The notes below the pieces were generated by a model that worked only from the letters and a program-made list of their open reading frames with translations, was not told where the DNA came from and did no database searches. From Octopus vulgaris (Eukaryota): DNA of 64,000 nucleotides. Positions 3,031 through 53,042 of this stretch are shown piece by piece. Positions within the stretch are counted from its first letter, which is position 1; each line of letters begins with the position of its first letter. The translations under genes and the position numbers were made by a program. Location: contig OX597826.1 of the NCBI GenBank assembly GCA_951406725.2, positions 80,104,001-80,168,000 of the forward strand, given 5' to 3'.

Positions 3031-3113
3031 AGCTTTTTATAAATATCGAGCAAGTTTGTATATCAAGGGGGAACTTTTCCAGTTTCATCGGACATGTGGC
3101 TGTCATAGTTAAT
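3031..3113 (-). CDS. Same channel, 83-nt Cys-loop exon
   Basis: ttccag|A TTA ACT...AAA AGC T|gtaagt gives (R)LTMTATCPMKLEKFPLDIQTCSIFIKS. It has C-x13-C with FPxD and the typical 83-nt size. Its first base completes the AG|A Arg codon. Confidence 0.96.
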
Positions 3114-3380
3114 CTGGAAAGGAAGGGAGAAGAAAAATTACTCTTTCTACAAGTCACATGTGGAGTTAGCATGGGTTTTACTAGATTAAATCGACAAACT
3201 TAAAGCGCAGCAGCTTAGGGATGTTGTTGTTGTTGATGATGATGCTGGTGCAGTTGGTGTTGTTTTTGTTGTTGGTGGTGATGAAGAGAAGGGGGTGGAT
3301 AGGAAAAATCACGATGGGGAGGATGGTTAAAATGACGGGGGATGGTGGTTGTAATGGTGATTGTTCTGGGTGTAAAGGAT

Positions 3381-4258
3381 AATGGTGATGATGAAGATGA
3401 TGATGATGATGAGACAATGGTGAGGATCATGATGATATGATGATGATGATGATGATGATGATGACGATGATAACGATGATGACAATGATGATGATGATGA
3501 CAATGGTGAGGATCATGATGATGATGATAATGATGATGACGGTGATGATAATGATGATGATGATGATGATGATGATGATGGTGAGGTGGTGGTGAATGAT
3601 GATGATGAAGATGATGACAATAGTAATGAAGATGCTAATGATAATGATGACGATGATGATGATGATGACAATGACGATGACAATGGTGAGGATCATGATG
3701 ATGATGATAATGATGATGACGGTGATGATAATGATGATGATGATGATGATGATGATGATGGTGGTGGTGGTGGTGGTGGTGAATGATGATGATGAAGATG
3801 ATGACAATAGTAATGAAGATGCTAATGATAATGATGACGATGATGATGATGATGACAATGACGATGACAATGGTGAGGATCATGATGATGATGATAATGA
3901 TGATGACGGTGATGATAATGATGATGATGATGATGATGATGATGGTGGTGGTGGTGGTGGTGGTGAATGATGATGATGAAGATGATGACAATAGTAATGA
4001 AGATGCTAATGATAATGATGACGATGATGATGATGATGACAATGACGATGACAATGGTGAGGATCATGATGATGATGATAATGATGATGACGGTGATGAT
4101 AATGATGATGATGATGATGATGATGATGATGATGATGACGATGATGATGATGATGATGATGATGACAATGGTGAGGATCATGATGATGATGATAACGATG
4201 ATGAATATAATGATGAATTTGTTGACGATGACGACGACGACGTTGATGATGATGTCAT
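3381..4258. repeat. Compound (GAT)n tract with higher-order 184-187-nt repeats
   Basis: The unit gaatgatgatgatgaagatgatgacaatagtaatgaagatgctaat recurs at 3594, 3781 and 3965. Confidence 0.95.
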
Positions 4259-4894
4259 GAAATCAGAAAAACAGTAAAACAGTAAGAAAAGATAGATGCA
4301 GATTCAAGGCATGGAAATTTAAACAAATATTTAACGACCCGCACAGCTCCAAGGTTACCAAGTAAGTGACGCGGGTGTAACGCGGGTGTAACGCGGGTGT
4401 AACGGGGCTCCCGAATCCAAGGGAGGACTGCGCCTTTCTAGTTATGATTAAATTCCCATACGAACTCCCAAACGAATTCGTATATGAAGCATCGCAGCTT
4501 TCAGTGTGGCTCTAAATTCTACGCAGATAAATCTGTAGAGATCTACTTTACAAAATGAAAACAACGCACTGCTAACACAGAGTGGATCAGTTTTGACTTA
4601 TAAATATTTAAACATACTTCGTAGAGTATTATGTCTGCAAAACTAAATACGGTGTCCCCTCCCAGCAATTAACAAATTGACTGAGAGTAATACACGACAT
4701 GCAGTAACTTTACGTACTGAAAATAGCAGTTAAATCTCATAGTAATTGGATCTCATCGTTTTATATAAAGGAAGGTCACATTAGAAAAATGGGATTATGG
4801 TGAGAGGAACGTTTTTGAAAATAGGTCTGATCGGTCAGTGTTGGCCTTGGTCTAAACAACAATAGCTGTGACCACAACAACAACTACTGCTCCT

Positions 4895-5127
4895 GCTACT
4901 ACTACTACTACTACTACTACTACGAATAATAATAATAAAATAATAATAATAAAATAATAATAATAAAATAATAATAATAATAATAATAAAATAATAATAA
5001 TAATAAAATAATAATAATAATAATAATAAAATAATAATAAAATAATAATAATAATAATAATAATAATAATAATAATAATAATAATAATAATAATAATAAT
5101 AATAATAATAATAACAATAATAATAAT
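4895..5127. repeat. (CTA)n followed by (AAT)n
   Basis: Directly visible. Confidence 0.97.
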
Positions 5128-5829
5128 ACGAAACCTACAACGATTAACTCTTTTCAAGTGTGGGTAAGGTGCTGTGATTATTTGACTACAGACTGTGATC
5201 TGAAAATGTTGGTTTAAGTACAGAGTCAATAACTGTAAGGGGAAGTTTCAAGCCTGAGCAAATTCATCTATATCACTTGATTTCTCTGTTACTGTATTGC
5301 TGGTCGCTCTACTATTATGCTGATGTTTTTCTATCGATTTTTAGAAGGTGTTTAAAGGTGAATGAAACCAAAGACAAGTTGAACGAAACGCCCAAAGCCT
5401 ATAGAAAACCGAATAAAACACATTGCGTTATTCAGCTGGTCATTATGCTCTCTTGGGCACCTCAACCGTCCTCACTGCACTAAGCATTTATAAATGTACA
5501 AAACTAATATAAGTGTATGCTTGGGTATGTGATTGCATATGTGTGTGTGTCTGTGTGTTGGTAATTATTGTATGTGTGTTTGTGTGATGAGCTTTTAACT
5601 GAACAGCCATTCAGTTCTCATTAGCCTAATTAACTTAATTGTTAACGGACTCCATAAAGCGATAGCGTTTCCAACCGTAAGCGATTGCAACAGTGAATAA
5701 CTGCCGAGCATTTCTTTATGTTAAACTACAGGAGCGTAATAATGTCCACGGACACAAGTTCGAGATGGCTGCATTTTGTTATGGCTGTTAACTCCCTATA
5801 AAACTTACAATTGAATGATATTCTTCGTC

Positions 5830-50149: not shown

Positions 50150-50159
50150 TGTATGGTTA

Positions 50160-50482
50160 TACATTCACGCTATCACAGTGTCGACCAGACTGCTGGATGC
50201 CGCTGGTCACTATATACATCGCTGGTCACAATGTAACTTGCATCGTTTTAGATTTCGAACGAAGCCATCCCGCTGGCTAGATGAGCGCGCCAACATTACC
50301 CCTGATAGGGAAAGTCGGTCCGTCGCAGGGTTGCCCGTTTACGAGCCAAGTAGACCGAAACAACGTGATATGAAGAGTTTTGCTCAAGAACACAACGCAG
50401 TACTCGATATAGGAATCGAACACAAGATCTAGTGACCGTGAGAGCAATACCCTAACCACCAGACCGGAGCATACGCCTTCAC
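50160..50482 (-). mobile_element. Older SINE with A-like head and a different tail (related pieces at 42415-42680 and 52215-52335)
   Basis: ttgctcaagaacacaacgc...ccctaaccac head; shared catcgctggtcacaatg tail. Confidence 0.7.
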
Positions 50483-50999
50483 ATCTATTCCTTTATACTC
50501 AGAGTGAAACCTGAACCATTAATCGTTCGTCATAGAGAATGGCTAAACTGGAAAGTTGATACGGCTTGATACAATTGCACAGGAGAAATCTAGCAAACAT
50601 CACGTCCACGGGTCTTTAGCTTTCTATTGATTCCTCTCCTAGTTTTAAATGTTCTAACCGTAGACACACTGGTATGTGTTACTTCTCTATTACATTTTCG
50701 AACATATACAGACAATAAGCTTTAGTTCATAATGACGGTTCGGTTTCCATTGTGTATTCCATGGAGAACTGTCCACTTATTAGCTAACATTTCCGTTTCC
50801 AAGTTATATTTTTGCTACAATATTGCTTTTTATGTTAACTTTAATTTTGTAAATGTGCTATAACACACATATACATACACACACACACACACACACACAC
50901 ACACACACACATATATATATATATGTGTGTGTGTGTGTGTGTGTGTATGTGTATGTATGTGTGTGTTATAGCACATGTACATATATATATATGTATATA

Positions 51000-51836
51000 C
51001 TAGCAGTATTGCCCGGCTCATGCGCTCGTGCGTTCTATGCACGCGCGAATTAAGCTATACTTGGATGAAGTTCAATCAAAATTCAATTCTTTTGGTTTTA
51101 AAATCAAGCATTTAATGTCCTCTATTTTTTGCGCTTATGTGTTCCATTTCCTCAATAGGAAGTACGTAGAAGCGTTTCATAAATTTTTGTTGGTCAAATA
51201 ATTGCATTGTTGAATTATTCTTTTAGATCAGTATTTCTCAACGGGGATTCCAGGGGAAAGTTTCAGGGAATCGCTGGCGATGTATCGTGATGATCAAAAA
51301 TCCGGCCTGCTAAAATTTGGTTAAAGTGATTCAAACTGCAGACTCAACGCAAAATGGTCACATTTAATTCAAAGCGTTAAAAATGTTATGAAAACAATTG
51401 GCATTTGTTCACAAAGTCCAAACGATTAATACGAAAAAACCCTCCAGGCTACATCCCGAAAATTCATTTCTTTGCCAAATTTCTACAATGTTTACGGCGA
51501 TTCGTTTTTACATCTTGATTTTTTATTTTTCATGCAATTTACGCATGCTTGCATGCGTGGTGAACACAGTTCACGTCAAACAGCTGACTGAGTAAAGTTC
51601 ACTATTCAATGCATGGGATAAGGCCTAAACAAACACATTATCGATTTTTGCACTTGCGAGATGAATTTCAGAACAGAAATAGCGCAGTTCAATTTTCATT
51701 CACCTAAACTTTAAGTGACCCATTTTTGGTGGTTCTACGATTTGTTGGCTAGAAGGAGATGTGCCGGGAAGTTAAACACACAGGCACACACACAGATGCA
51801 CACACAGACACACAAGTTGAGTTTTATATATATAGA
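51000..51836 (-). mobile_element. Non-autonomous Helitron (837 nt)
   Basis: On minus: 5' TCtatatatataaaactc and 3' gccgggcaatactgCTAG|t, matching the ends of 27168-27567. Confidence 0.82.
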
Positions 51837-52974
51837 TATATATATTTATATAATATAAATAATATATATATATGCATATATGCATACATATATGTACATA
51901 CCAACGTATATATGTATATATACATTCATATATGGGTACAGGACATCAAAAAGAACGTGAACAAAATGAAAAACAAAAACATGGAAAACGAACTTTTTTT
52001 CGGACAACGAAAGAAACAAATAGAGAAACGAGACATGCAACATAAAGAACATTCCCTTCATCAGTTGTCCCCTGTTTTATCTACTCCGCGTTTTGGAAGG
52101 TTGAGACAAGACGCAACTTCGTTAAAACAGTCCTTCCCGCAAAGCAAATTAAATAAAATTTGGAATTTTTGCGGAGGTTAAAGTGGTAACATAAACAGGA
52201 CAATATATATATATATCACGTGATCACGTGACCGATCAGACCATCAGATGTTGTTACACATCGCTGGTCACAATGCGTTCGCTTTGTTTTAGCCTTCGAA
52301 TGACGCCACCCCGCCGGCTAAGCGAGCAGGCCAATATATATATATATATATATATATATATATATATATATATATATATATATATATATGTATGTATGAA
52401 GAGACCATAAATTTTCGAGAAAAGTACTCACTAAAAGATACAGATATTTCGTGTAACTGAGCCATGCGATCTTTTCCAGAGGACTACAGCCGCAGAATTT
52501 CCTTAAACTGTCCCAAAACTACTATATATCTATATATGTATATCTATCTTGATGTGTGTGTGTATGTGTGAGCGTGTGTATGTGTGAGTGTGTGTGTGTG
52601 TGTGTGTGTGTGTGTGTGTGTGTGTGCGTGTGTATTTCTGTACGGTGGAATATATGCCCATATATATATATATATATATATATATATATATATATATATA
52701 TATATATATATATATATATATATATATAAACTCTATTTTCGCCTTGAATGAATTGAGAGATAAGCGGATAAAGTTGAAGTCATTTGTTATTATTATTCAT
52801 CGGCTGACGTAATAATTCTCATACATCTTTTTATCAAATATCCTTCGTGCCAAGGTAACACGACCATAACTAACGTTGATCGATTGGGCCGGATATAGCA
52901 TTCAATTAAACGCCATCGTTTCGGTTTTGATCTCACTAACCCCAATGATTTCAATCAAACATTTATTCACTTAC

Positions 52975-53042
52975 CATGGACGATTCTCGAATGGAGTCGA
53001 AGCTGTTGACATACATGTGTACTTTTACTTTGGTAGGTACGT
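52975..53042 (-). CDS. Cys-loop ligand-gated ion channel (GlyR/GABA-A/GluCl-like), 68-nt internal exon (beta1/loop G)
   Basis: Minus strand reads ttttcag|AC GTA CCT...TCC ATG|gtaagt = (D)VPTKVKVHMYVNSFDSIRESSM. Resembles GlyR [23 protein letters not shown], with the typical 68-nt size and phase 1/0. Not in the ORF track. Confidence 0.93.

What the first reader, a model, noticed from the sequence alone, without database searches (positions are those of the whole stretch)
3031..53042. Cys-loop channel with a charge-reversed agonist pocket: possible receptor for an unknown ligand
Seen: the three spliced exons align to GlyR alpha1 around each binding loop. Loop D F63/R65 become I/T (NFIITQKW vs NIFLRQQW). 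Loop E R119, L127 and S129 become H, R and R ([15 protein letters not shown] vs LLRISRNGNVLYSIR). Loop B E157 becomes K (CSIFIKS vs CIMQLES). Loop G has Asn and loop A has FANEK, so neither known GluCl arginine is present. Established: R65/S129 hold the carboxylate and E157 the amine of glycine/GABA-type agonists. Inference: this is not a standard Gly, GABA or Glu receptor. The basic pocket suggests an amine-less anionic ligand, proton gating, or a structural subunit.
Basis: partly seen in the sequence, partly recalled or inferred. Interest (0 to 1): 0.8.

Follow-up and report, generated by a model that had tools for sequence, protein, structure and literature searches.

The report
Octopus channel with charge-swapped binding pocket
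This intact, spliced octopus gene encodes a glycine-receptor-like subunit, predicted to pass chloride, whose transmitter pocket has its charged residues moved to new positions, a pattern shared by three cephalopod paralogues, so it likely does not answer to glycine or GABA and may instead be opened by pH or by an unidentified ligand.

Summary
The residues are real: three minus-strand exons splice (RNA-like contigs) into an intact GlyR-like subunit identical to an annotated Octopus vulgaris protein. T65, R129 and K157 are conserved in three cephalopod paralogues. R127 is not (Q, V or K elsewhere), and H119 also occurs in Aplysia GluClAc2. The conserved pocket is therefore charge-swapped and net neutral, not simply basic. 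The gene sits in a mollusc-wide orphan clade (R/K129, no R65, basic M2 15'), apart from Aplysia GluClAc1/2. The pore looks anionic, but this subunit lacks the -2' proline, as GlyR beta does. Best guess (0.35): K157 and E204 fill the pocket as a built-in amino-acid mimic bridged by R129, giving a pH-gated or ligand-independent chloride channel; the mite channel SsCl is a weak precedent. Rivals: an acidic ligand (0.3), a structural subunit (0.2). Orphan molluscan clades are already noted in print; I found no paper on this pocket. No function is shown.

The parts
52975..53042 (-). Coding exon: beta1 / loop G (N46 at 53005-53007, no GluCl arginine)
   Evidence: AG/GT ends, exact match to P0131; joined to the next exon in 4 of 4 contigs
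13939..14162 (-). Coding exon: loops D, A and E
   Evidence: Pfam Neur_chan_LBD; covered end to end by contigs in 4 of 4 runs with no other letters
14136..14144 (-). Loop D codons I63 (14142-14144) and T65 (14136-14138), replacing F63 and R65
   Evidence: same in all three paralogues
13944..13952 (-). Loop E codons R127 (13950-13952; not conserved) and R129 (13944-13946; conserved, clade marker)
3031..3113 (-). Coding exon: Cys-loop and loop B up to S158
   Evidence: contigs join it on both sides in 4 of 4 runs
3035..3037 (-). K157 codon (AAA), replacing E157; no A-to-G change seen in contigs
   Evidence: K157 in 30 of 368 aligned rows, all in the three cephalopod paralogues

Best explanation
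The gene encodes a two-disulphide, GlyR-like Cys-loop subunit, predicted to be chloride-selective, whose transmitter pocket is likely filled by its own side chains, so it would be gated by pH or be ligand-independent rather than opened by glycine, GABA or glutamate. Shown by sequence: K157 replaces the amine-binding E157, E204 replaces the carboxylate-binding T204, the complementary arginine has moved from 65 (beta2) to 129 (beta6), and the aromatic box Y99/F159/Y202/F207 is kept. Inferred: the K157 ammonium would sit in the aromatic box where an agonist amine goes, and E204 would reach across the interface to R129 where an agonist carboxylate goes. Titrating K157, or making and breaking the E204-R129 bridge, would move loop C and the gate. 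Also inferred: lacking the -2' proline, this subunit may need the PAR-bearing paralogues as partners.
For: T65/R129/K157/E203/E204 are the same in three paralogues that are 59-65% identical, one of them named in both octopods and a cuttlefish. Loop C has the same cysteine spacing as GlyR, so position 204 maps without gaps. Among 85%-identity representatives, D/E at 204 occurs in 8 of 16 with R/K129 and 11 of 131 with R65 (kin share labels, so not independent). R65 and R/K129 occur together in 1 of 366 rows. In the alkali-gated mite channel SsCl a beta6 R122 and a loop C E198 form an intersubunit ion pair only in activated states, and R122A shifts pH50 (PMC13065796). A +7 offset to GlyR at three anchor positions puts them at 129 and 205 (my inference). 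Drosophila Alka's putative alkali sensor is described as a positively charged orthosteric site (PMC13103399). A GlyR-like pH-activated channel exists in an annelid (PMC4801368). M2 has -1' Ala, 0' Arg and 13' Thr.
Against: No recording, structure or interface model exists, so the side-chain geometry is inferred from alignment only. SsCl E198A had no significant effect (p = 0.73) and R122A was marginal (p = 0.046); the paper places its main pH sensor elsewhere. The SsCl mapping rests on numbering, not on an alignment. SsCl and Alka were not in my tree, and I take them (recalled) to be arthropod lineages unrelated to this clade. Outside the trio only 4 of 12 R/K129 representatives have D/E at 204, and 11 of those 12 have Q157, so the mimic cannot be clade-wide. 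An intact aromatic box fits a real ligand equally well.
Confidence: 0.35

Rival explanations
1. It is a receptor for an acidic or zwitterionic small molecule bound in a new way: one carboxylate or sulphonate to R129, a second acid group to K157, and any amine to the aromatic box and E204. Candidates from memory are D- or L-aspartate, glutamate, isethionate, taurine and octopine, all abundant in cephalopod tissue.
For: Glutamate recognition arose several times with basic residues from different loops: loop G Arg and loop A Arg (PMC4338433), loop C and loop G Lys (PMC13335744). The clade is sister to the molluscan group that holds GluClAc1/2. GluClAc1 lacks R65 and still responds weakly (PMC4178172). 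None of the 12 loop A exons found in this genome has the GluCl loop A arginine, which leaves room for another acidic-ligand chloride channel.
Against: Every well-activated GluCl in the papers read keeps R65 and S129, and R98S abolishes GluClAc2 responses. E203/E204 would repel an amine-less anion. A screen of 41 O. vulgaris Cys-loop channels with 18 ligands, including Glu, GABA, Gly, beta-alanine and betaine, reported no such receptor in its main text, but I could not see whether this gene was among the 41.
Confidence: 0.3
2. It is a structural (beta-like) subunit: it co-assembles with a canonical subunit, and its self-filled pocket is a non-binding interface.
For: -2' Pro is replaced by Ala, as in GlyR beta rows of the alignment, in all 13 full-length orthologue rows. 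The genome also holds a canonical R65/S129/E157 subunit (C18, P0357).
Against: The two paralogues that keep PAR have the same pocket. Six of the 12 loop D/A/E exons found in the genome are of the R/K129 type, many for a purely accessory role. Both faces are altered and strongly conserved.
Confidence: 0.2
3. It is an amine-gated channel, or an ordinary glycine/taurine/GABA receptor with a flipped pose (amine to E204, carboxylate to R129).
For: Loss of the loop D arginine is typical of histamine, ACh, serotonin and tyramine-gated chloride channels (PMC4006026). The aromatic box and two loop C acids are present.
Against: K157 and R129 flank the site and would repel a cation. Position 157 is Glu in 83 of 131 R65 representatives and never basic there.
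Confidence: 0.13
4. It is a pseudogene, an alignment artefact, or RNA editing restores E157 (AAA to GAA).
For: The K157 codon is AAA, one A-to-I edit from Glu; coleoids recode heavily (recalled).
Against: The frame is open through to the stop codon in the exons checked. Orthologues are 90-99% identical over 278 residues. No change at 3035-3037 in 4 of 4 contigs, and all transcript-derived rows of the trio that cover the site read K. Contigs drop rare variants, so low-level editing is not excluded.
Confidence: 0.02

Closest known systems
Vertebrate glycine receptor alpha (9boy, 7mlu and others; best PDB matches)
   Same: Two-disulphide fold, loop C length, aromatic box, anion-type M2; about 45% identity over 278 residues to a fish alpha4
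   Different: R65T, S129R, E157K, T204E, F63I; -2' Ala; M2 arginine at 15' instead of 19'
Aplysia GluClAc2 and GluClAc1 (P0325, P0302; identified by name or residue numbers; PMC4178172 passages)
   Same: Same molluscan radiation; H119; GluClAc1 also lacks R65 and has a basic residue at 127
   Different: No loop A arginine, R instead of S at 129, K at 157, E at 204; separate clade (AU p = 0.005)
'PSG unknown 2', a cephalopod group sister to molluscan GluCls (bioRxiv 10.1101/2025.06.15.659772, passages)
   Same: Same tree position, cephalopod sequences, function unknown
   Different: Membership not checkable (supplement closed); the passages read give no pocket analysis, and my tree shows bivalve, gastropod and chiton relatives
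pH-gated chloride channels SsCl, Drosophila Alka, Alvinella Alpo7/Alv-a1-pHCl (PMC13065796, PMC13103399, PMC4801368; passages)
   Same: GlyR-like anion channels without a classical agonist; SsCl has a beta6 Arg to loop C Glu bridge at apparently matching positions; Alka's orthosteric site is positive
   Different: Not placed in my tree; SsCl's main sensor is a His/Glu cluster elsewhere; no pH data for the octopus protein
GlyR beta subunit
   Same: -2' Ala (AAR) instead of PAR
   Different: GlyR beta keeps R65 and E157; the octopus paralogues with PAR share the altered pocket

Membership tests
Cys-loop (pentameric ligand-gated) channel subunit | Neur_chan_LBD plus Neur_chan_memb domains, 15-residue Cys-loop, four membrane helices | tested here: met
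   Pfam PF02931 E 6e-47 and PF02932 E 3e-24 on P0131; exons located in G000
Anion-selective two-disulphide (GlyR/GluCl-type) branch | Second disulphide in loop C; M2 with -1' Ala, 0' Arg, 13' Thr | tested here: met
Anion-selective two-disulphide (GlyR/GluCl-type) branch | -2' proline (PAR) | tested here: not met
   AAR in this subunit, PAR in both paralogues
Anion-selective two-disulphide (GlyR/GluCl-type) branch | Chloride permeability | not testable with these tools
   needs recordings
Glycine/GABA-type amino-acid receptor (AAA motif) | Loop D Arg, loop E Ser, loop C Thr (PMC4338433), loop B Glu | tested here: not met
   T65, R129, E204, K157
Glycine/GABA-type amino-acid receptor (AAA motif) | Aromatic box in loops A, B, C | tested here: met
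   Y99, F159, Y202, F207
Aplysia-like GluCl | Loop A arginine (R135 of GluClAc2) | tested here: not met
   A101
Aplysia-like GluCl | One clade with GluClAc1/2 | tested here: not met
   ML tree; AU p = 0.0048 (group named after the tree was seen)
Ecdysozoan GluCl | Loop G arginine | tested here: not met
   N46
pH-gated chloride channels (pHCl, SsCl, Alka, Alpo7) | Gating by pH | not testable with these tools
   no recordings
pH-gated chloride channels (pHCl, SsCl, Alka, Alpo7) | beta6 Arg and loop C acid as in SsCl | tested here: inconclusive
   numbering offset only; SsCl sequence not obtained
'PSG unknown 2' cephalopod group | Clusters with those sequences | not testable with these tools
   bioRxiv supplement closed; tree position is similar

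The most novel reading that the evidence does not exclude
Molluscs have a whole, undescribed branch of chloride channels (R/K129, no R65, basic M2 15'), and in cephalopods three of its members carry a built-in amino-acid mimic (K157 + E204 bridged by R129) that turns the transmitter pocket into a pH switch, or into the site for a cephalopod-typical acid such as D-aspartate or isethionate.
Probability: 0.3. Interest if true: 0.75.

Novelty: new variant of a known kind. Interest (0 to 1): 0.5.

Why it matters
Half of the GABA/glycine-type loop D/A/E exons found in this octopus genome (6 of 12) belong to this orphan branch, so much of cephalopod fast inhibition or chloride signalling may use an unknown stimulus. 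The conserved residues give exact mutations, subunit combinations and stimuli to test in oocytes. A self-filled pocket or a further independent route to acid recognition would add a new case to how pentameric channels change ligands. The limit: orphan invertebrate Cys-loop clades are common, and nothing functional is shown here.

Tried and rejected
R127 as part of a conserved basic pocket: rejected (Q, V, K elsewhere). H119 as a special change: rejected (169 of 368 rows, incl. GluClAc2). M2 6' Leu as special: rejected (84 of 155 R65 representatives). Editing of K157 to Glu: not seen in 4 of 4 contigs; the one other letter (3065, 2 of 4 runs) is not an A-to-G change on the coding strand. Membership of GluClAc1/2: rejected. 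The dopamine-gated DopC family is nicotinic-like and unrelated. Getting an SsCl alignment from the PDB search failed: it was not among the 60 rows shown, and no alignment text was in the supplements held. No complex prediction was run. The run search listed no holder on record as RNA. The Fisher test is not used as a probability because the rows are related. A search for 'pseudo-agonist' with four other terms gave 0 papers; the ZAC paper had no relevant passage; the Alka paper PMC10665042 is not held. Two look-ups in the scan's earlier findings gave nothing on this gene.
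Full report
1. Observation. Three exons, 53042-52975, 14162-13939 and 3113-3031, have AG/GT ends and read as 124 codons without a stop. They are identical to residues 53-176 of P0131 (CAI9732293.1, Octopus vulgaris) and to O. sinensis P0135, and differ from O. bimaculoides P0001 at 2 of 124 positions. Contigs of runs guessed to be RNA cover exon 2 exactly and go on into exons 1 and 3 in 4 of 4 runs. 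They cover exon 3 and go on into the next exon, which supplies F159, in 4 of 4 runs. The rest of the gene lies outside the window on G000:C13, from about 80.266 Mb (signal peptide) to 80.068 Mb (M4 and stop); the four outside exons checked match P0131 exactly. Numbering follows the GlyR alpha3 chain 9boy, counted by me; that it equals alpha1 numbering here is recalled.

2. What is conserved. Three homologue searches, a cluster look-up and a representative search gave 399 proteins; 368 covered the ligand domain and M2 in one piece and were aligned. T65, R129 and K157 are shared by three paralogues: this gene, one 650 kb away on C13 and one on C5. They are 65% and 59% identical to it over 278 residues; orthologues are 90-100% identical. 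The third paralogue is named in Octopus, Argonauta and a cuttlefish. K157 occurs in 30 of 368 rows, all in this trio, many of them isoforms; one chiton row has R157. R127 is found only in O. vulgaris and O. sinensis; it is Q in other orthologues and V or K in the paralogues. H119 is in 169 of 368 rows. The conserved charges are thus R129 and K157 against E203 and E204. The pocket is rearranged, not simply basic, and the aromatic box is intact.

3. Family position. In a maximum-likelihood tree of 42 chosen rows, the trio is a clade (100/99). It lies in a 17-row mollusc clade (93/94, just short of the tool's star) with bivalve, limpet, vent-snail and chiton proteins and two more octopus paralogues. 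All but the chiton row have R/K129 and none has R65. This clade is sister to a molluscan group (89/85) holding GluClAc1 (P0302, named) and GluClAc2 (P0325, identified by 10 of 10 published residue numbers). Forcing the trio together with four A-like GluCl rows is rejected (AU p = 0.0048; I named the group after seeing the tree). A FastTree on all 368 rows gave the same clade, 49 rows at 0.97. R/K129 without R65 is found in 48 of 366 rows, both together in 1. A second marker is in M2: 15' is Arg or Lys in 13 of 16 R/K129 representatives and 0 of 200 others, and the usual 19' basic residue is in 1 of 16 against 115 of 200. In this genome 6 of the 12 loop D/A/E exons found are of the R/K129 type (a lower bound).

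4. Pore. M2 has -1' Ala, 0' Arg, 9' Leu and 13' Thr, which predicts anion selectivity (established rule; sequence). This subunit has Ala at -2', as the GlyR beta rows do; both paralogues keep PAR. That hints at a heteromer but does not show one.

5. Mechanism. In amino-acid receptors the amine sits in the aromatic box next to the loop B glutamate, and the carboxylate binds the loop D arginine and the loop C and loop E hydroxyls (PMC4338433; PMC4006026). Here a lysine stands at the first place, a glutamate at the loop C hydroxyl, and an arginine at the loop E hydroxyl. The simplest reading is that the protein supplies its own ammonium and carboxylate, bridged across the interface, so that no amino acid fits and pH or another stimulus sets the gate. 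This is inference from alignment; no model was obtained. The nearest precedent is SsCl, where beta6 R122 and loop C E198 pair across subunits in activated states. SsCl T144, H208 and L254 match GlyR T151, H215 and L261, an offset of 7, which puts R122 at 129 and E198 at 205 (my count). The functional support there is thin: R122A p = 0.046, E198A p = 0.73. Alka's putative alkali sensor is described as a positive orthosteric site, and an annelid GlyR-like channel is pH-activated. I give this reading 0.35. An acidic ligand bound between R129 and K157 is close behind (0.3), because glutamate recognition has repeatedly used new basic residues and GluClAc1 responds weakly without R65. The candidate ligands (D-aspartate, isethionate, octopine) are recalled, not from a call. 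A structural role gets 0.2, an amine or flipped amino acid 0.13, an artefact or editing 0.02.

6. What is in print. Lynagh et al. noted many molluscan and annelid subunits without the amino-acid motif as 'several new subunit classes' (PMC4338433; parts 1-2 of 5 read). A 2025-26 preprint reports a cephalopod group of unknown function sister to molluscan GluCls in venom glands (10.1101/2025.06.15.659772; passages). Courtney et al. screened 41 O. vulgaris Cys-loop channels with 18 ligands (10.1101/2025.04.02.646353; parts 1-2 of 10 and passages). The bioRxiv supplements are closed and may list this gene with a result; that bears directly on novelty. Also read as passages: PMC4178172 (plus part 7 of 8), PMC13335744, PMC4006026, PMC13065796 (plus a term search of 4 supplementary files; its alignment figure not seen), PMC13103399, PMC4801368, PMC13174522, PMC11536092; part 1 of 6 of 10.1101/2025.10.31.685654. 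Nine searches listed no paper whose title, abstract start or read passages describe this pocket or give it a ligand; subscription journals, including Kehoe 2009, are largely missing.

7. Verdict. It is a new variant of a known kind: an orphan, clade-defining rearrangement of the Cys-loop pocket with sharp, cheap tests. Interest 0.5.

Noticed in passing
P0131 M2 (L013) and aligned relatives: The M2 basic residue sits at 15' instead of 19' across the R/K129 clade (13 of 16 against 0 of 200 others), a second marker that may change gating or modulator sites.
   Followed up: partly
L028, about 1715-1725 (G000:C5, near 54.631 Mb): The third paralogue changes reading frame in a run of C just after M2: an assembly error or a broken allele. 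The O. vulgaris model P0077 lacks the membrane region, while Argonauta and cuttlefish orthologues are whole.
   Followed up: partly
G000:C13 39.46, 39.7, 42.3, 79.45 and 80.1 Mb (L004, L012, L005, L002, L001): Five of the six R/K129-type genes found lie on the same chromosome, in or near two local pairs.
   Followed up: no
P0135, P0139 against P0131, P0002: An optional insert of about 45 residues, rich in Arg/His, follows the signal peptide in both octopus and unnamed orthologues: conserved alternative splicing at the N-terminus.
   Followed up: no
L001-L012: None of the 12 loop A exons found has the Aplysia-type GluCl arginine; octopus may lack that receptor, within the limits of the search.
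   Followed up: no
window 36829-37219 and 42869-44001, + strand: Open stretches that look like decayed mariner/Tc1-type transposase pieces in the long intron (resemblance from memory).
   Followed up: no
P0131 M3 start: Val at the position of GlyR A288, which by recalled rules predicts low ivermectin sensitivity.
   Followed up: no
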